From: Bacteroidales bacterium | GTDB lineage: Bacteria; Bacteroidota; Bacteroidia; Bacteroidales; Prolixibacteraceae | NCBI GenBank assembly: GCA_047974415.1 | Contig: JBKECH010000002.1 | Location: forward strand, 13,419-77,418 | DNA length: 64,000 nt | Direction of reading: 5' to 3' | Shown here: positions 5,600 to 49,565 of the stretch, piece by piece | Layout: each line of letters starts with the position of its first letter | Position numbering within the stretch: the first letter of the stretch is position 1 | Made by a program: the position numbers and the translations under genes | The notes under the pieces: generated by a model | What the model was told of the DNA's origin: nothing | The model's input: the letters and a program-made list of their open reading frames with translations, nothing else | The model's database searches: none

Positions 5600-6826
5600 A
5601 TGACACAAAGCAAGAAATCCTATTACATTCTGCTAGCCTTTCAGCACATATTGGCAATGTTCGGTGCAACAGTATTAGTCCCAGCTCTAACGGGGCTAGA
5701 CCCATCCATCGCTCTGTTGTGCGCCGGAGTTGGCACCCTAATCTTCCACTCCGTAACGAAATTCAAAGTACCATCATTCCTTGGTTCCAGTTTTGCCTTC
5801 ATAGGTGGCATACAGCTAGTGCTAGAAAAAATGGGCATGGCGGAGCTCAAAGGTGGTATTATTTGTGCCGGCCTTGTATACATTCTGATCTCCCTTTTCA
5901 TCAGGCTATGGGGCGTCGAAAAGATAAATAAGCTTTTCCCTCCAATTGTCGTAGGTCCTGTAATAGTTGTCATTGGGCTACGCCTTAGCCCCATCGCAAT
6001 CAGCAACGCTCTGTATGTCGATGGTGTTTTCAGCCCAAACTCTCTTATAATTAGCTCCATTGTCATCATAAGCATGATTATCAGTAGCGTGCTTGGGCGC
6101 TCATTCTTCCGCCTTGTGCCAATCCTGACCTCCGTAATTGTGGGCTACATTGTTTCGAGCCTATTGGGAGTTCTAAATACTGATGCCATCGCCTCGGCAC
6201 CGTGGTTCACCTTTAGCAACGACACCATAATGTCTACCATCACAAGCGTCCCTCACTTCTCGTGGAACGCAATCCTGGCTCTTGCCCCAATAGCTCTTGT
6301 AGTATTCATGGAACATATCGGCGACATCAAAAGCAACGGTGCAGTAGTGGGCAAAGACTTTGTGAAAGACCCTGGTTTGGACCGGACAATCCTTGGCGAC
6401 GGCTTGGCAACAATATTTGCAGGATTGGTGGGAGGACCAGCCAACACCACCTACGGCGAAAACACAGGCGTGCTGGCAGTTACCAAAAACTACAACCCCT
6501 TTGTACTGCGTATTGCAGCCGTGATGGCAATCTTGCTAAGCCTCTTTGGAAAATTCGGTGCCGCCATTAGTAACATACCCCTCGCCGTGATGGGTGGAGT
6601 ATCAGTAGTGCTGTTCGGAATGATAGCAACAATAGGCGTGCGGACAATGATAAACGCACAGCTAGACTTCGGACACTCCCGAAACCTAATCATAGCCTCC
6701 ATAATATTAGTGTGTGGAATTGGCGTTTCCGAAATCCCATTCTCCGAAACAATCAGCATGTCGGGACTAACAATTGCTGCCTTCTTGGGAATAATTCTAA
6801 ATCTGGTACTGCCAAAAGATATCTAA
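5600..6826 (+). CDS. NCS2 family nucleobase (uracil/xanthine-type) permease
   Basis: Polytopic membrane protein with FQHILAMFGATVLVPALTG and NTTYGENTGVLAVTK motifs typical of UraA/PyrP-like permeases. ATG at 5600 is preferred to the GTG at 5507. Confidence 0.85.
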   Translation: MTQSKKSYYILLAFQHILAMFGATVLVPALTGLDPSIALLCAGVGTLIFHSVTKFKVPSFLGSSFAFIGGIQLVLEKMGMAELKGGIICAGLVYILISLFIRLWGVEKINKLFPPIVVGPVIVVIGLRLSPIAISNALYVDGVFSPNSLIISSIVIISMIISSVLGRSFFRLVPILTSVIVGYIVSSLLGVLNTDAIASAPWFTFSNDTIMSTITSVPHFSWNAILALAPIALVVFMEHIGDIKSNGAVVGKDFVKDPGLDRTILGDGLATIFAGLVGGPANTTYGENTGVLAVTKNYNPFVLRIAAVMAILLSLFGKFGAAISNIPLAVMGGVSVVLFGMIATIGVRTMINAQLDFGHSRNLIIASIILVCGIGVSEIPFSETISMSGLTIAAFLGIILNLVLPKDI

Positions 6827-6977
6827 ACAGCGCCGTCATAAACCGACATTAGAGTTAAAGTCACTTTCTTGCTTAGCTCCTACTTGGTGTTTCCGTCAAA
6901 AAACGCTTGGATTGCGCTAACTCCTGATACTCCTAGTCTGATTTGTTGCCTTGTGGGGCAGATAACATCGGGCAGTA

Positions 6978-7463
6978 CTACCACCTGTCCATAAGATAGG
7001 GTCGAGGGTCCACAGGTGTGCCATTTTTCCTTACCTCGTAGTGCAGATGCGCACCAGTCGAGCGACCAGTGTTGCCAACCTTGCCGATATATTGCCCCTT
7101 CTTAACCCTCTTGCCAACCTTCACCCTTATACGCGACAGGTGCGCATACACAGTTGAGTATTGCGAGTCGTGCTTGATTGTTATCATCTTGCCATATCCC
7201 GATTTTCTGTTGCGCTTAGCGTAAGTAACAACCCCCTCTGCTGCGGCAAACACATAAGTACCCTTAGGAGCAGCAAGATCCTGACCAGTGTGCATCCGAC
7301 CATTGCGCATGCCGTAGTTCGACTGGCTGGTGATGTCATGTTTCTTTACTGGATAGATGCTCGGATAGGCGGAATGCACTGTTCTTGATCTAAGACCACG
7401 TGCACACGAACCTAGAAAGATAATACTGATGATAAATAGTAAGACGACAAAAGTTCTTTTCAT
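6978..7463 (-). CDS. M23 (LytM-type) family peptidase, secreted or lipoprotein
   Basis: Signal plus Cys (FLGSC), HTGQDLAAPKGT (HxxxD) and GRSTGAHLHYEV (HxH) catalytic motifs. Confidence 0.85.
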   Translation of the reverse strand: MKRTFVVLLFIISIIFLGSCARGLRSRTVHSAYPSIYPVKKHDITSQSNYGMRNGRMHTGQDLAAPKGTYVFAAAEGVVTYAKRNRKSGYGKMITIKHDSQYSTVYAHLSRIRVKVGKRVKKGQYIGKVGNTGRSTGAHLHYEVRKNGTPVDPRPYLMDRW

Positions 7464-7877
7464 TTCTGCAAAACTGTTTTTGCCAAAAATAGGAAATATA
7501 TCCTTGCAGTCAATAAATATTACTTATTATTTCCATTTTGTTCCTTCTATCAAACAGTCCTTTTTTTTGAATATGAAAAATCTGCTCATAGGCAAGGCAG
7601 ACAAGCCATTCGTACCTGAAACCTGAAGTCCTATGCGTCCGATTTTAAAATAAAATCTTTCAGTCTGGATGAACAAGCAAATACTCGAAAACTTATGAAA
7701 ATACTCCTTTTGATGTGTGTAAGTCTTTGTTTGTCAGTAGGAAATATCTATAAAGGATGATGAGTGCGCAAAGCCTCCAGATTTGAGTATTTATGCAAAG
7801 ATGGCAAGTTGTTTTTGCATAGGCAATTCTCAGGCAGTTAAGATGCAAGCAATTGTACCTAAACGCAAGATGTATGT

Positions 7878-8435
7878 AAGTGCAAACCTATGCTTGAAGC
7901 ATGACCTGCGAACATTTGATGCCTCGTGCAAGTGATCGAAGCTCAACCTACGAACATTTGGAGCTTTGTGCAAGTGATTGAATCTCGACCTGCGAACATT
8001 TGATGCCTCGTGCAAGTGATTGAAGCTCGACCTGCGAACATTTGATGCTTCGTGCAAGTGATTGAAGCTCGACCTACGAACATTTGATGCCTCGTGCAAG
8101 TGATTGAAGCATGACCTACGAACATTTGGAGCCTCGTGCAAGTGATTGAAGCTCGACCTACGAACATTTGGAGCTTCGTGCAAGTGATTGAAGCATGAAT
8201 TGTTAACAGACGGTGAATAATGCAAGTGATTTATTGATCATCTGTTAACATTTGGAGCTTCGTGCAAGTGATCGAAGCATGAATTGTTAACAGACGGTGA
8301 ATAATACAAGTGATTTATTGATCATCTGTTAACAATTGGAGCTTCGTGCAAGTGATCGAGGCATGAAATGTTAACAGATGGTGAATAATGCAAGTGATTG
8401 AAGTGCCAAAACTAAACATCTCAAAATACAAGTGA
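7878..8435. repeat. Tandem array 1: 42-bp unit x7 (7911-8204), then an 84-bp higher-order unit x~2.5
   Basis: The core TGCAAGTGAT (one TACAAGTGAT) starts at 7927, 7969, 8011, 8053, 8095, 8137, 8179, 8221, 8263, 8305, 8347 and 8389, exactly 42 bp apart. A further copy lies at 8427. Confidence 0.95.
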
Positions 8436-8594
8436 TTGAGCCTAGCTAAAAAAAGAGGCTTGCGACAAAAAAAATATTTGCAAGAACTGTAAGAGTGAAC
8501 GTTTGGATGAATGTTTGTACTGTTGTTCCATGAGTTGCTATTAATTGGAATCGTCATATGATAATTGAGCCATGGAAGTTTTATGTGTTTAGGA

Positions 8595-8702
8595 TTCTGC
8601 AATAAGCTGTAAGCTCTAAACTTTATGTTTTTGCTGCTTTGTTAATCACCCTTCTGTGTGTATAGTTAGGCTTGTAGCTTGCAAGCTATAGCTTACTGCA
8701 TG
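8595..8702 (-). repeat. Repeat family 2, orphan copy (start-codon position mutated to ATA)
   Basis: About 80 percent identical by eye over ~105 bp to the reverse complement of 14673-14777. It contains the 14-bp perfect palindrome TAGCTTGCAAGCTA. Confidence 0.85.
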
Positions 8703-8919
8703 TTTGTTTCATTTTTGAGTTATAAGCATATACATTCTATCTATTAATCTTTGCCAGCACAGAAATTGTTATATTTGCCAGACAGATACCATTTGTGGTG
8801 TATGTTCATGAAGTTGGTGCTTTGTAACAAAGCACCAAGCTCCAAAAATGTGATACTATTGTCGGGGCATAAATCTGGAATTGGAACTTATTAATTGTGC
8901 CCTATATATAAGAATATTC

Positions 8920-10386
8920 ATGGCTGGAGTCAATATAAAAAAAATAAGAGGGATGAAAGAGCTAGAAGACAAGTTGATGGATGAGGTTATTGAGGTGGTG
9001 GCACAGTGCTCGCACAAGCAAGGAGCTGGCGCCTATATAATTGGAGGTTTTGTCCGAGACCTAATGCTTGGACGCCCATCAAAGGACATCGATATTGTTA
9101 CTGAAGGCCGAGGTATAGAACTTGCCGAGATGGTGGCGCATTTGCTGTTGCCAGTTCCGAAGGTATCAGTTTTTAAGACTTACGGTACAGCCATGTTTCG
9201 GCATAAAGATATGGAGTATGAGTTTGTGGGAGCGCGCAAGGAGTCGTACAGAGCCGATTCGCGCAATCCGGATGTAGAACCTGGTACAATTGAAGACGAC
9301 CAAAGGCGGCGAGATTTTACCATTAATGCGCTGGCAATTAGTCTGAACGCCGATAACTACGGCGAGCTTGTAGACCCCTTTGGGGGAATGGAAGACCTGA
9401 GGCAGGGCGTGCTACGTACACCACTCGACCCCGTGGCGACATTCTCGGACGACCCCCTGCGTATGATGCGAGCAATACGTTTTGCAACGCAGCTGAACTT
9501 TCGTATCGCCGATGATGCTATGACTGCCATAAGGGAGCAAAAACAAAGAATCGAAATCATATCCAAAGAACGTATTGCCGACGAACTTAACAAAATAATG
9601 ATGAGCAGAACCCCGTCGGTAGGATTTAAGCTCCTCGACATAACGGGGCTTTTGGAGATAGTCCTACCAGATGTGGCAAGGCTAAAAGGACGCGAGGAAA
9701 TAGATGGCATCGGACATAAAGACGTGTTCTATCATACCTTGCAGGTGCTGGACAAACTCTGCGAGAACTCCGACGACCTCTGGTTGCGCTGGTCGGCATT
9801 GCTTCACGATATCGGCAAGCCACAAACCAAAAGATTTGTGCCCGGAGTAGGGTGGACGTTCTACTCGCACAACTTCGTGGGCGAGAAGATGGTTCCGCGA
9901 ATATTTAGACAAGCGAAACTGCCACAAAACGACAAAATGAAGTTTGTGCAGAAGATGGTAGGATTGCATATGCGCCCAATTGCATTGGTGGAAGACGAGG
10001 TGTCGGACTCTGCCGTGCGTCGTCTGCTCTTTGATGCTGGAAACGACATCGACCAGCTGATGACTCTATGCGAAGCAGACATCACAACAAAAAATGACAA
10101 GAAGGCAGAACACTTCCTTTGCAATTTTAAAAAGGTAAGAACCAAACTTGTAGAAATAGAAGAGAAGGACGCTCTTAGAAACTTCCAACCACCGGTCGAC
10201 GGCGAGGAAATAATGTCGATGTTTGGGCTAGCACCATGCCGCCAAGTTGGCGACTTGAAGGCGGCAATAAAAAATGCAATCCTCGATGGCGACATACCAA
10301 ACAAGAGGGAGCAAGCAATAGAGCTACTGCTGCAAAAAGCAAAGGAAATGGGCATCGAGGCAAAAGATGAAAACTCAGAACCTTGA
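8920..10386 (+). CDS. cca: tRNA nucleotidyltransferase / poly(A) polymerase family protein with HD domain (CCA-adding enzyme-like)
   Basis: [19 protein letters not shown] (GGxVRD...DxD), RRDFTINAL, and HD motif LLHDIGKP. The start is uncertain (ATG 8920 or 8953; the track start at 8881 is TTG). Confidence 0.82.
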
Positions 10387-26795: not shown

Positions 26796-27794
26796 ATGAG
26801 TTTATTCGGAGGTTTAACGATTGTAATTATTGCGGGAATATTGCAAGGTTCTTATTTCCTGCCTATGACCTATACAAAGAGATGGGAGTGGGCGCATAGT
26901 TGGTTTGCTTTTTCCTTGCTTGGTATGCTGTTGATAAACTGGATAATTGCTTTTCTGAGCATTGGCGAAATAGGTGCAATTATCTCAAGCATACCAAGTA
27001 ACTTAATGTTGCAGGTTCTATTGTTTGGACTATTATGGGGAGCAGGGGCTATCTTGTTTGGTAAAGCAATGGATATGTTAGGGATGGCCTTAGGATATCC
27101 AATAATTATGGGTATAAATGCTGTTGCTGGAGCTATTGTCCCTGCGTTGGTATTTTCGGCAGACATATTTTTACATTTGAAAGGAGTGCTTATTATTGTC
27201 GGGTCTATTATTTCGGTAGTCGGGATTGTATTTTGTGCATCGGCTTCTTCTCAGAAAGAGGATAAATCAAGGATGTCTCGCTACACGTCAATGGGTTTAA
27301 TTTTGGCAGTGATTTCGGGATTTACTTCCTGTCTGCCTAACTTGGGGGCGGCATTTAGCAAGGGAATAACAGATATAGCAATCGAGCATGGTGTCAATAA
27401 GGCTATTGCAGGGAATGTTATATGGTCTTTGTTTTTCACTACAGGAGCAGTGGTAAACATGGGGTACTGTCTATTTGTTTTAGAGAGAAAGAGAGAAACT
27501 GCAGAATTTTTTAATAGTTATAAGACAAGGAATTGGGGACTGTTGTCTATAATGTCTCTGATGTGGATTGGCAGTTTTTACGCCTATGGTTATGGCTCTG
27601 TTGTGCTTGGAGATTTGGGTTTGATTGTTGGTTGGCCATTGTTGGTGTCTTTGTCAATTGTAGTAGGAAACTTATGGGGGATATTTCGAGGAGAATGGCG
27701 TGGAGCCCCAATCAAGGCTCGGAACACTTTGAATCTTGGAATGCTTGTTTTAATTGTTTCGGTAGTTGTCATTGCTCTAAGCAATTTGTTTTAA
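26796..27794 (+). CDS. RhaT-family (L-rhamnose/H+ symporter-like, DMT superfamily) sugar transporter
   Basis: 332 aa, ~10 TM. LLFGLLWGAGAILFGKAMDMLGMALGYPIIMG parallels the E. coli RhaT block [32 protein letters not shown]. Confidence 0.75.
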   Translation: MSLFGGLTIVIIAGILQGSYFLPMTYTKRWEWAHSWFAFSLLGMLLINWIIAFLSIGEIGAIISSIPSNLMLQVLLFGLLWGAGAILFGKAMDMLGMALGYPIIMGINAVAGAIVPALVFSADIFLHLKGVLIIVGSIISVVGIVFCASASSQKEDKSRMSRYTSMGLILAVISGFTSCLPNLGAAFSKGITDIAIEHGVNKAIAGNVIWSLFFTTGAVVNMGYCLFVLERKRETAEFFNSYKTRNWGLLSIMSLMWIGSFYAYGYGSVVLGDLGLIVGWPLLVSLSIVVGNLWGIFRGEWRGAPIKARNTLNLGMLVLIVSVVVIALSNLF

Positions 27795-38436: not shown

Positions 38437-38622
38437 TATACCAAGCGTGATGATAATCTAAGCCGATTATAGTGCTAGAAATAATAGTGAAAATAATATT
38501 TAGAACGATTATTACGCAATGACTATCCCAAGATGAGTAGTTTATAGCCTTACGAATACTCGAAATGTTCCAGAATTTATAATCCAGAGTCTTTCGAGCA
38601 AAATAATGAGTCCAAAATGTAT

Positions 38623-38860
38623 CATCTGGAGCTTTCCGAATGCTCGAATGCCCTCAGAATACATACTCTTTAACTTTTCGAGCTTTCGAACGGTAAACAA
38701 TTTAACATCTGGAGCTTTCCGAATGCTCGAATGCCCTCAGAATACATACTCTTTAACTTTTCGAGCTTTCGAACGGCAAACAATTTAACATCTGGAGCTT
38801 TCCGAATGCTCGAATGCTCCCAGAATACATGTTCTTTAACTTTTCGAGCTTTCGAATGCT
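38623..38860. repeat. Tandem array 2: 83-bp unit x~2.9
   Basis: CATCTGGAGCTTTCCGAATGCTCGAATGCCCTCAGAATACATACTCTTTAACTTTTCGAGCTTTCGAACGGTAAACAATTTAA starts at 38623, 38706 and 38789. Degenerate related sequence extends upstream from ~38540. Confidence 0.93.
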
Positions 38861-48595: not shown

Positions 48596-49309
48596 CTACG
48601 CTTGTTTTGTATTTCCCCGAGTTTTGATGTTTTGGTTAGCGCGGTTTATTTCCACGGCAATTTTGCGAGCAAATTCTTCGTGTGTGTTTGGCGAAATCTT
48701 CGTCATGGCACGCATATACATCACCAGCTGGTCGTTTATCACCTCCATCACCACCGGCTTTAGCTCGCTTGCCGACTGCTCGCCTTTGCTCACACTAAGC
48801 TGCGAGGTGTATTTGCTGTGTGCCTGCTGAAAATCGCTTTGCGTCTGCTTCAGGTTTTCCACCATGACATCGAGCTGGGCAATAGCTGCCACTTGTGCCT
48901 TTATTTCCGCCACCTCTAGCTCTTCGATAATTGATTTCATTTGAGCCGTTTGTTCGATATACGACATTCGGATCATGCTCAAGCCATATTTCTCGAAAAT
49001 GGCGAAAATGCGCTCTGCCGCCACTTGGGCTTCTCCGGCAGGCAGCAGGGTGCAAGCTTCGAGATACTGATAGCAGGCTCTGAAAGCACCGTCGCGATTT
49101 TGGTCGAAACTTTCAAGCAACGAGTGCGCCTTGTTCTTTTCGATGGCGGTGATGAGCTGCGCATTTTTCTCCTCCAGCAATGCTATGGTGGCATGCAGAG
49201 AGGCATCGTCGGCAATGGGGGCATCGTGATACGCCTTGAGCAGGTTTTCTGCTGTTCCGCCCACTTCGTTCACGCGGGCCGATGCGTTTAGAATAGAAAT
49301 TGTAGTCAT
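48596..49309 (-). CDS. Hypothetical helical protein (resembles the Bacteroidota DUF6261-type family)
   Basis: MTTISILNASARVNEVGGTAENLLKAYHD...; 237 aa, predicted all-helical. The start is set at complement 49307-49309, because the longer track ORF (to 49621) reads through the tandem repeat. Confidence 0.6.
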   Translation of the reverse strand: MTTISILNASARVNEVGGTAENLLKAYHDAPIADDASLHATIALLEEKNAQLITAIEKNKAHSLLESFDQNRDGAFRACYQYLEACTLLPAGEAQVAAERIFAIFEKYGLSMIRMSYIEQTAQMKSIIEELEVAEIKAQVAAIAQLDVMVENLKQTQSDFQQAHSKYTSQLSVSKGEQSASELKPVVMEVINDQLVMYMRAMTKISPNTHEEFARKIAVEINRANQNIKTRGNTKQA

Positions 49310-49336: not shown

Positions 49337-49565
49337 AATCGAGAGTTTCTCGATAGCTGCCCAACGAGTGTTTGGGCAATCGAGAGTTTCTCGATAGCTG
49401 CCCAACGAGTGTTTGAACAATCGAGAGTTTCTCGATAGCTGCCCAACGAGTGTTTGAACAATCGAGAGTTTCTCGATAGCTGCCCAACGAGTGTTTGAAC
49501 AATCGAGAGTTTCTCGATAGCCGTCCAACGAGTGTTTGGGCAATCGAGAGTTTCTCGATGGCTGA
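49337..49565. repeat. Tandem array 3: 41-bp unit x~5.5, each unit containing a 7-bp-stem hairpin
   Basis: AATCGAGAGTTTCTCGATAGCTGCCCAACGAGTGTTTGRRC starts at 49337, 49378, 49419, 49460, 49501 and 49542. ATCGAGA-GTT-TCTCGAT is a palindrome. The array ends 27 nt upstream of the adjacent gene's ATG. Confidence 0.95.

What the first reader, a model, noticed from the sequence alone, without database searches (positions are those of the whole stretch)
7878..8435. Strictly phased 42-bp tandem array that switches to an 84-bp higher-order repeat in a 1.4-kb gene-free gap
The core YRCAAGTGAT recurs 12 times at exactly 42-bp spacing (7927 to 8389). Seven simple 42-bp units are followed by 84-bp units in which a diverged 42-mer alternates with the original. 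Each 84-bp unit contains a 10-bp inverted repeat, TGTTAACAGA...TCTGTTAACA. Forty-two bp is four helical turns, so all cores would face the same side of the DNA. That geometry is expected for cooperative protein binding (iteron or centromere-like arrays), or it could serve as a length-variable contingency locus. The array sits in an unusually long non-coding interval (7464-8919) between divergent genes.
Basis: partly seen in the sequence, partly recalled or inferred. Interest (0 to 1): 0.6.

Follow-up and report, generated by a model that had tools for sequence, protein, structure and literature searches.

The report
Gene-less copy of DUF6261 hairpin-repeat array
This is a real 42-base tandem repeat in which every unit places the same short motif at the tip of a hairpin, but it is a gene-less duplicate of the array in front of a DUF6261 gene elsewhere in the genome, so it belongs to a recurrent, unexplained Bacteroidales repeat class and is not a plasmid-style iteron or centromere.

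Summary
Twelve cores sit exactly 42 bp apart: seven simple units followed by 2.5 units of 84 bp. Every core lies between complementary arms, 5-7 nt long in the simple units and 21 nt long in the 84-bp part.

The array is not unique. A 93%-identical copy with five simple units lies on another contig, directly upstream of a DUF6261 gene.

Genome-wide, 47 of 158 tandem-repeat loci have periods of 41-43 bp. All 9 intact DUF6261 genes carry a private 41/42/83-bp array upstream, and the 2 broken copies carry none. In relatives, 10 of 14 DUF6261 loci carry such an array. Orthologous arrays keep the hairpin through compensatory changes.

Four of these array families also have gene-less copies, and the finding is one of them. 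No replication, partition or transposase gene is nearby, no terminal inverted repeats were found, and the core is not enriched elsewhere. The iteron/centromere reading is therefore unsupported.

The closest published relatives are the PgRS (41-nt) and BrickBuilt minisatellites of Porphyromonas gingivalis. Earlier notes of this scan had already reported the DUF6261 link on other genomes, and I re-tested it here.

The parts
7818..7841 (+). Leader shared with the paralogous copy (CAyAGsCAATTCTCAGGCAGTTAA). Weaker similarity extends upstream to about 7775.
   Evidence: It is 22/24 identical to C172:26974-26997.
7842..7893 (+). Decayed first unit (52 bp) with a degenerate core GCAAGCAAT. It is absent from the paralogue.
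   Evidence: Sequence read in register and arm analysis.
7894..8187 (+). Seven simple 42-bp units. Each junction forms GAGCyTC-GTGCAAGTGATT-GAAGCwy, that is, the core between 5-7-nt complementary arms.
   Evidence: TRF gives period 42, 89% matches and 0 indels. Registers are and arms.
8188..8397 (+). Two and a half 84-bp higher-order units (A'/B alternation). Every core sits in a 12-nt loop between 21-nt complementary arms built around the self-complementary TGTTAACA.
   Evidence: TRF period 84. Arms show 17-18 Watson-Crick pairs plus G-T out of 21. This part is 97.6% identical to C172:27219-27428.
8398..8439 (+). Degenerate terminal unit. The 13th core (8426-8437) lies 38 bp after the 12th.
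   Evidence: The same degenerate unit is present in the paralogue.
8440..8510 (+). A-rich tail shared with the paralogue (...AAAAAAATATTTG), followed by a further decayed unit (GAACGTTTGGATGA).
   Evidence: The stretch 8398-8480 (the terminal unit listed above plus the start of this tail) is 86.7% identical to the paralogue, and similarity fades by about 8510.
49337..49564 (-). Class member in the same window: a 41-bp x 5.6 array (dyad ATCGAGA-aac-TCTCGAT) ending 27 nt before the start of a DUF6261 gene.
   Evidence: TRF, Pfam PF19775 and orthologous arrays in L177-L179.
48596..49309 (-). DUF6261 gene (237 aa) served by the 41-bp array.
   Evidence: The AlphaFold2 model is an all-alpha elongated bundle with pLDDT 91.6.
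38616..38856 (+). Another gene-less array (83 bp x 2.9), paralogous to the array upstream of the DUF6261 gene at C97:19673-20104. It shares TTAACATyTGGAGCTT with the finding's array.

Best explanation
The array is a gene-less duplicate of the leader, repeat and tail module that precedes a DUF6261 gene on contig C172 of the same genome. It belongs to the Bacteroidales class of 41-43-bp hairpin minisatellites, the kind described as PgRS and BrickBuilt in Porphyromonas gingivalis.

Shown:
- There are two copies with the same architecture and different neighbours.
- All 9 intact DUF6261 genes here, and 10 of 14 DUF6261 loci in relatives, have such an array immediately upstream.
- Four of the nine linked array families have gene-less copies.

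Inferred:
- Arrays grow by head-to-tail duplication of units, through slippage or unequal exchange.
- The 84-bp higher-order unit arose when two neighbouring units acquired complementary 21-nt arms around the core, and that pair was then duplicated.
- In front of DUF6261, the array is probably transcribed as the 5' leader and folds into a row of hairpins. In this family each hairpin would display GUGCAAGUGAUU in its loop, acting in cis on DUF6261 expression or binding a factor.
- At this locus, with no DUF6261 gene, the array most likely has no dedicated role. It is probably kept similar to its parent by gene conversion. It is not an iteron or a centromere.
For: - Second copy at C172:26974-27511: 93% identical, same tail, 5 instead of 7 simple units, different flanking genes.
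- That copy lies 252 bp upstream of a DUF6261 gene (Pfam E=1.8e-22).
- The genome-wide histogram of tandem-repeat periods peaks at 41-43 bp, with 47 of 158 loci.
- 9 of 9 intact DUF6261 genes have an upstream array, and 0 of 2 broken copies do.
- 10 of 14 DUF6261 loci in 5 other genomes, including one from another family, carry an array.
- Orthologues at 60-64% amino-acid identity keep a 41-bp array 27-35 nt before the ATG. The dyad changes in a compensatory way (ATCGAGA/TCTCGAT, ATCGTC/GACGAT, ATGACTA/TAGTCGT), and a conserved promoter-like region lies upstream of the array.
- A TAnnTTTG promoter-like box lies upstream of the array in 3 of 9 loci, and the spacer to the ATG is only 27-86 nt in 5 of 9.
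- Gene-less paralogues exist for 4 linked families.
- Cores lie between complementary arms.
- The repeat body is 97.6% identical between the copies, against 87.9% for leader plus tail (Fisher p=0.0012).
- PgRS elements carry 41-nt tandem repeats, and BrickBuilt has a leader, repeats and tail (PMC4596501).
Against: - No transcription data could be obtained, so the leader model is inferred from position only.
- Folding energies of 18 linked arrays show no preference for the sense strand (8 of 18).
- Broken stem pairs are more often A-C (16) than G-T (6) on the sense strand, which does not favour a sense-strand RNA.
- No TAnnTTTG box was found upstream of the C172 or window copy.
- The higher conservation of the repeat body could reflect selection on this copy and not gene conversion.
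- Unlike BrickBuilt and PgRS, the element has no terminal inverted repeats and only two copies.
- The C172 DUF6261 protein has no close homologue, so this array family could not be followed in other species.
Confidence: 0.55

Rival explanations
1. [quoted passage not shown] Each DUF6261 protein would be neutralised or regulated by the repeat RNA encoded just upstream. Gene-less arrays such as this one would supply the same hairpin RNA in trans, as a spare antitoxin or a sponge.
For: - The layout of tandem repeats followed by a stand-alone protein gene matches the locus definition of type III systems. The period (41-43 nt) lies within their published range of 31-62 nt, though these arrays have more copies (3-11, against 1.9-5.6) (PMC3401426).
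- Every paralogue has a private repeat sequence.
- The dyad is kept by compensatory change among orthologues.
- Intact genes always have an array and broken genes have none.
- DUF6261 is monocistronic, or sits in unrelated gene contexts.
- The gene-less copy keeps 12 of 13 cores intact.
Against: - DUF6261 is an all-alpha elongated bundle with no resemblance to ToxN, CptN or TenpN, or to any nuclease. The best PDB fold match has E=0.098 and TM no higher than 0.31, and there is no PADLOC match.
- No terminator lies between the repeats and the gene on the sense strand.
- There is no sense-strand G-U signal.
- There is no evidence of toxicity.
Confidence: 0.15
2. DNA-level protein-binding array. 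The phased cores or palindromes, four helical turns apart, would bind a protein cooperatively, perhaps DUF6261 itself or a nucleoid protein. This would regulate DUF6261 at the linked copy and neighbouring genes, or local DNA structure, at gene-less copies.
For: - Strict 42-bp phasing with no indels.
- Within arrays the dyad arms are conserved in sequence more than the other columns (4.7% against 11% substitutions).
- Most families carry perfect 6-8-bp palindromes with 3-6-nt centres, which look like operators.
- There is no strand bias.
- The motif TTAACATyTGGAGCTT, shared with the 83-bp family, lies in opposite orientation relative to the DUF6261 gene.
- F-plasmid sopC (12 x 43 bp, each with an inverted repeat; from my own knowledge) shows that such geometry can serve protein binding.
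Against: - The core is not palindromic and is not found elsewhere in the genome above chance.
- The arms flanking the same core have two unrelated sequences, which fits a hairpin better than one DNA-binding specificity.
- DUF6261 has no recognisable DNA-binding fold.
- No par or rep genes are present.
- Gene-less copies are not placed consistently relative to genes.
Confidence: 0.15
3. Contingency locus. Gain and loss of 42-bp units would switch or tune expression of the flanking M23 peptidase or CCA-adding enzyme genes.
For: The two copies differ in unit number (7 against 5). The array lies between divergent genes.
Against: - The array ends 430-480 bp from either start codon, with other elements in between.
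- The flanking genes are housekeeping genes.
- Their orthologues in the two sister species have no array and different neighbours.
Confidence: 0.05

Closest known systems
PgRS/MITE464 (41-nt tandem repeats) and BrickBuilt (23-nt minisatellite with leader and tail) of Porphyromonas gingivalis (Klein et al. 2015, PMC4596501)
   Same: - Found in Bacteroidales and intergenic.
- Species-restricted.
- Spacer-less tandem direct repeats with a unique leader and tail.
- The 41-nt period of PgRS matches the 41-43-bp class here.
- Another array family in this genome does lie inside MITEs bounded by the terminal inverted repeat GGCTCTATGTCGAAT.
   Different: - This element has no detectable terminal inverted repeats or target duplications.
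- It has only two copies.
- It has an 84-bp higher-order structure.
- Its parent copy is tied to a DUF6261 gene. I found no published description of that link.
Type III toxin-antitoxin loci (toxIN, cptIN, tenpIN; Blower et al. 2012, PMC3401426)
   Same: A tandem array of about 31-62-nt repeats lies immediately upstream of a stand-alone protein gene. The repeat sequence is private to each locus.
   Different: - The protein is an all-alpha bundle, not a ToxN-like endoribonuclease.
- No intervening terminator was found.
- These arrays have more copies (up to 11, against 1.9-5.6).
- This particular copy has no gene downstream of it.
F-plasmid sopC and other plasmid centromere or iteron arrays (from my own knowledge)
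   Same: About a dozen directly repeated units of about 43 bp, each with an inverted repeat, keep sites on one face of the helix.
   Different: - The context is chromosomal housekeeping genes with no parA/parB or rep genes.
- The conserved element is a non-palindromic core between arms of variable sequence.
Bacterial VNTR and MIRU minisatellites
   Same: Intergenic tandem repeats of tens of bp, with copy-number differences between copies.
   Different: This array has strict hairpin architecture, a genome-wide preference for one period, and a systematic link to one gene family.

Membership tests
DUF6261-linked 41-43-bp hairpin arrays (class seen in this scan) | Tandem units of 41-43 bp (or double that), without spacers | tested here: met
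   Period 42 and 84 with 0-1% indels.
DUF6261-linked 41-43-bp hairpin arrays (class seen in this scan) | A dyad or hairpin in every unit | tested here: met
   Arms of 5-7 nt, or 21 nt, lie around every core. Other families have 6-8-bp dyads.
DUF6261-linked 41-43-bp hairpin arrays (class seen in this scan) | Lies directly upstream of a DUF6261 gene, in sense orientation | tested here: not met
   No DUF6261 gene or remnant lies near window 7894-8439. The feature is met by the paralogue at C172.
BrickBuilt/PgRS minisatellite-in-MITE | Unique leader and tail flanking the repeats | tested here: met
   Leader 7818-7841 and tail 8440-8510 are shared by both copies.
BrickBuilt/PgRS minisatellite-in-MITE | Terminal inverted repeats matching an IS family | tested here: not met
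   The best left/right inverted match scores 15-18, against 16.8 +/- 2.2 in shuffles. The genome's MITE terminal repeat GGCTCTATGTCGAAT is absent within 1.5 kb.
BrickBuilt/PgRS minisatellite-in-MITE | Multicopy (about 10-20 copies) and restricted to one species or genus | tested here: inconclusive
   Only 2 copies exist. Restriction holds: not found in the 334 other family genomes searched, in JGI metagenomes or in viral contigs.
Type III toxin-antitoxin antitoxin array | Tandem repeats followed by a terminator and then a toxin gene | tested here: not met
   No gene follows for about 480 bp, and the next gene is the CCA-adding enzyme. No terminator-like site was found in 7300-9100.
Type III toxin-antitoxin antitoxin array | Partner protein of the ToxN/CptN/TenpN endoribonuclease kind | tested here: not met
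   The partner of the paralogous copy is DUF6261, which is all-alpha, has no fold match and has no PADLOC match.
Type III toxin-antitoxin antitoxin array | Repeat RNA is transcribed, processed and neutralises the protein | not testable with these tools
This needs an experiment.
Plasmid iterons or centromere arrays (sopC, parC, parS) | Adjacent rep or parA/parB genes, or a plasmid or origin context | tested here: not met
   Pfam annotation of eight neighbours shows chromosomal housekeeping genes only.
Plasmid iterons or centromere arrays (sopC, parC, parS) | Specific binding by the cognate protein | not testable with these tools
   This needs EMSA or DAP-seq.
CRISPR array | Repeats separated by unique spacers, with cas genes | tested here: not met
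   Whole units repeat without unique spacers. Rfam finds no CRISPR direct-repeat match.
Contingency locus / VNTR | Unit number varies among strains or within a culture | not testable with these tools
The only indirect evidence is 7 against 5 units in the two paralogues.
Protein-coding repeat | An open frame with homologues | tested here: not met
   The minus-strand ORFs of 131 and 74 aa run through the simple units. The 131-aa ORF has no homologue among 5.8 billion proteins. The plus strand is closed in all frames.

The most novel reading that the evidence does not exclude
DUF6261 proteins and the 41-43-nt hairpin repeats encoded just upstream of them may form cognate RNA-protein pairs. This would be a new, Bacteroidota-wide module built like a type III toxin-antitoxin or an autoregulatory ribonucleoprotein, but with an all-alpha protein. 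Gene-less arrays such as this one would then be trans-acting sources of the same hairpin RNA, serving as spare antitoxin or sponge.
Probability: 0.12. Interest if true: 0.85.

Novelty: new variant of a known kind. Interest (0 to 1): 0.45.

Why it matters
Taken alone, the array is a species-specific minisatellite of a kind already described in Porphyromonas.

Its context matters more. In this genome and its relatives, one uncharacterised protein family is almost always preceded by a private 41-43-bp hairpin array. That family is DUF6261, with about 800 clusters at 50% identity. Orthologous arrays keep the hairpin through compensatory change.

Such a regular pairing of a repeat with a gene suggests a function. 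It could be a leader RNA, a cognate RNA partner or an operator array. It also gives a concrete handle for assigning a role to DUF6261, and for asking why Bacteroidales minisatellites prefer periods of two or four helical turns.

Gene-less copies like this one are natural controls. They show whether the repeat does anything without its gene.

Tried and rejected
- **Known RNA family.** Rfam at E<=1 over 6500-9500 gave only a meaningless plant microRNA match (26 bits against a gathering score of 119).
- **Coding repeat.** The period is a multiple of 3 and two minus-strand frames are open. However, the peptides are implausible and the 131-aa ORF has no homologue.
- **Remnant of a yrdC/Sua5 gene.** A 33-nt match of the leader lies inside that gene in a sister species. 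tblastn finds intact paralogues elsewhere and nothing in the gap, so I treat the match as chance.
- **MITE with terminal inverted repeats.** None was found.
- **Related arrays elsewhere.** A stricter pattern in metagenome contigs returned nine unrelated repeats, and none in viral contigs.
- **Empty-site comparison.** Synteny is not conserved at either locus in the two sister species, so no insertion boundaries could be drawn.
- **Strand of a putative RNA.** Comparing folding energies and counting G-T against A-C gave no consistent signal.
- **Sigma-70 and terminator scans.** They were uninformative, and Bacteroidota promoters are not covered.
- **Orthologous arrays of this family.** The C172 DUF6261 protein has no close homologue.

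Full report
**Observation**

The region was read directly and analysed with Tandem Repeats Finder. TRF reports 7894-8194 as period 42 with 7.2 copies, 89% matches and no indels. It reports 7894-8403 as period 84 with 6.1 copies.

Cut in register, the array consists of:
- a decayed 52-bp unit (7842-7893);
- seven simple units (7894-8187);
- five units alternating between two diverged forms, which is 2.5 units of 84 bp (8188-8397);
- a degenerate last unit whose core follows at 38 bp.

The twelve cores from 7927 to 8389 are exactly 42 bp apart, so the description is correct.

The gap 7464-8919 between the M23 peptidase (minus strand) and the CCA-adding enzyme (plus strand) is real. It also holds a dispersed 100-135-bp repeat at 8578-8712 that has more than 80 copies in the genome.

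**Anatomy**

Across the 22 units of both genomic copies, the ten columns GTGCAAGTGA and an internal AACA are nearly invariant, while the rest varies.

Every core lies between complementary arms. In the simple units the form is GAGCyTC-GTGCAAGTGATT-GAAGCwy, with 5-7 pairs. In the 84-bp part the arms are 21 nt long. Examples are ATTGTTAACAGACGGTGAATA / TATTGATCATCTGTTAACAAT and TCTGTTAACAATTGGAGCTTC / GAAGCATGAATTGTTAACAGA, each with 17-18 Watson-Crick pairs plus G-T.

So two unrelated arm sequences are centred on the same non-palindromic core.

Both strands fold better than shuffled sequence (z = -4.5 and -5.9). Any tandem palindrome would do so, however.

The plus strand is closed in all frames. 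Two minus-strand frames are open through the simple units, but the peptides look artificial and the 131-aa ORF has no homologue among 5.8 billion proteins. Rfam gives nothing credible.

**A second copy**

The window's own genome is a 3.2-Mb, 39.7% GC draft of 176 contigs, with SusC/D-type loci typical of Bacteroidota. It contains a second copy at C172:26974-27511.

The second copy has the same leader (CAATTCTCAGGCAGTTAA), the same 84-bp part and the same degenerate tail. It has five simple units instead of seven, and its neighbours are different: an M20 dipeptidase upstream, and a DUF6261 gene followed by a sugar kinase downstream.

The 84-bp part is 97.6% identical between the copies, whereas leader plus tail are 87.9% identical (Fisher p = 0.0012). 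Similarity fades within about 70 nt on the left and about 110 nt on the right.

No terminal inverted repeats are detectable at either copy.

The core is not enriched outside the two arrays (22 occurrences against about 24 expected).

The array was not found in:
- 60 relatives searched by BLAST;
- the 334 other genomes of the same family searched with a three-core phased pattern;
- JGI metagenome contigs, which returned nine unrelated repeats;
- viral contigs.

**The array belongs to a genome-wide class**

TRF on the whole genome gives 158 tandem-repeat loci. Of these, 47 have periods of 41, 42 or 43 bp, and almost none fall between 29 and 74 bp otherwise. They fall into at least a dozen unrelated sequence families.

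About 20 loci are the same 43-bp x 2.6 repeat inside a roughly 255-bp MITE bounded by the terminal repeat GGCTCTATGTCGAAT. That MITE breaks many contigs. Another family of 43-bp arrays lies in MITEs with the same terminal repeat.

Most units carry one perfect 6-8-bp dyad with a 3-6-nt centre.

The literature describes this kind of element in Porphyromonas gingivalis. BrickBuilt has 23-nt repeats with a leader and tail, and PgRS/MITE464 has 41-nt tandem repeats (PMC4596501).

**Link to DUF6261**

Earlier notes of this scan on other genomes (e1-2003328, e1-4197850) said that 41-43-bp arrays sit in front of DUF6261 genes. I tested this claim here.

- Pfam PF19775 finds eight genes over the cut-off. 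A profile built from the paralogues finds nine intact genes, one frameshifted copy and one fragment.
- All nine intact genes have a 41-, 42- or 83-bp array 27-290 bp upstream, each with a private sequence.
- The two broken copies have no array.
- About 27 non-MITE arrays lie in 3.2 Mb, so a chance co-occurrence is of the order of 0.5% per gene.
- In five other genomes, including one from a different family, 10 of 14 DUF6261 loci have a 41-42-bp array upstream. One of the four without an array is cut by a contig end.

Three orthologues (60-64% identity) of the window's own DUF6261 gene come from NCBI metagenome assemblies. Each has a 41-bp array ending 27-35 nt before the start codon, downstream of a conserved promoter-like region. 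The dyad is kept by compensatory change: ATCGAGA/TCTCGAT, ATCGTC/GACGAT and ATGACTA/TAGTCGT.

**Gene-less copies**

Four of the nine linked array families have additional copies with no DUF6261 gene or remnant nearby:
- the finding's array;
- C173:17262;
- C2:21806, C29:816 and C120;
- window 38616-38856.

These copies are not placed consistently with respect to neighbouring genes. The finding's array is therefore best described as a gene-less paralogue of a DUF6261-linked array.

**What DUF6261 is**

The family has 802 representatives at 50% identity, all about 230-245 aa.

An AlphaFold2 model (pLDDT 91.6) is an elongated all-alpha bundle. It has no significant match in the PDB by fold (best E = 0.098, TM no higher than 0.31) or by sequence.

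It has no match in PADLOC and no significant match in PHROGs or NCBIfam. I found no paper on its function.

The gene stands alone or sits in unrelated contexts.

**Mechanism**

The regular position between a promoter-like region and the start codon, together with the compensatory dyad changes, argues that the linked arrays are functional cis elements. They are most simply transcribed hairpin leaders.

The layout also resembles type III toxin-antitoxin loci, where tandem repeats of 31-62 nt lie in front of a stand-alone gene (PMC3401426). Against that resemblance, the protein is not a ToxN-like nuclease, no sense-strand terminator separates the repeats from the gene, and nothing shows toxicity.

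RNA-level selection is not demonstrated:
- sense and antisense folding energies show no bias (8 of 18);
- broken stem pairs are A-C more often than G-T on the sense strand (16 against 6);
- stem columns are more conserved in sequence than other columns (4.7% against 11% substitutions), which also fits protein-bound DNA palindromes.

For the finding's family, the variable arms around a constant non-palindromic core fit a hairpin better than a single DNA-binding specificity.

For this gene-less copy I consider a dedicated function unproven. The higher identity of the repeat body can be explained by gene conversion between the two arrays or by selection.

An iteron or centromere is not supported. 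There are no rep or par genes, the context is chromosomal housekeeping genes, and the motif has no other sites.

Cooperative binding on one face of the helix remains possible as a class property. A contingency role for the flanking genes is unlikely, given the distances of 430-480 bp and the intervening elements.

**Limits**

- The genome is a draft of 176 contigs. An independent short-read assembly breaks at the first unit, so unit counts may be collapsed.
- The sister species are too divergent for empty-site comparisons.
- The DUF6261 link had already been noted by this scan on other genomes. Here it is independently re-tested on this genome and its relatives.

Noticed in passing
whole genome G000 (TRF): The histogram of tandem-repeat periods has a sharp peak at 41-43 bp (47 of 158 loci) made of at least a dozen unrelated sequences. 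What sets this period is unexplained.
   Followed up: partly
G000 C75:15345-15599. About 25 further copies exist, many at contig ends (for example C31:101-351, outside the window).: A roughly 255-bp MITE has perfect 15-bp terminal inverted repeats (GGCTCTATGTCGAAT) and an internal 43-bp x 2.6 tandem repeat. Copies are 98-99% identical and break the assembly.
   Followed up: partly
G000 C98:885-1348, C23:24909-25243, C171:5746-5947, C125:1149-1296: A second family of 43-bp arrays (up to 10.9 copies, with 85- and 128-bp higher-order periods) lies inside elements bounded by the same terminal repeat as the 255-bp MITE.
   Followed up: partly
window 8578-8712: A dispersed 100-135-bp repeat has more than 80 copies across the genome at 77-90% identity. 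It lies in the same intergenic gap, and Rfam gives no match.
   Followed up: partly
window 38616-38856 and G000 C97:20644-20949: The 83-bp array family shares TTAACATyTGGAGCTT with the finding's array. In the DUF6261-linked copy at C97 the motif is in the opposite orientation relative to the gene.
   Followed up: partly
L178:100-140 and L179:14-52: A (CA)n microsatellite of about 20 copies lies upstream of the promoter-like region of two orthologous DUF6261 loci from metagenome assemblies.
   Followed up: no
L002:2012-2035 (minus strand) = G000 C172, about 27510-27533: A terminator-like hairpin followed by a T run lies on the strand opposite to DUF6261, between the array tail and the gene. It is not conserved in the window copy.
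   Followed up: no
G000 C13:7836-8581: A frameshifted DUF6261 copy with no upstream array lies directly after a gene whose C-terminus resembles phage-type muramidase/peptidoglycan-binding proteins. That resemblance is my own reading of the translation.
   Followed up: no
L153:2471-3459 (genome G004): One DUF6261 gene in a relative is preceded by a 214-bp x 4.6 tandem repeat (98% matches), not by a 41-42-bp array.
   Followed up: no
L134:146-400 (JGI metagenome contig Ga0172367_10155444): An unrelated non-coding 21/42-bp array built on CAAGTGATAA follows a gene ending in a T9SS-like C-terminal domain. The similarity of its core to this array is probably due to the search pattern.
   Followed up: no
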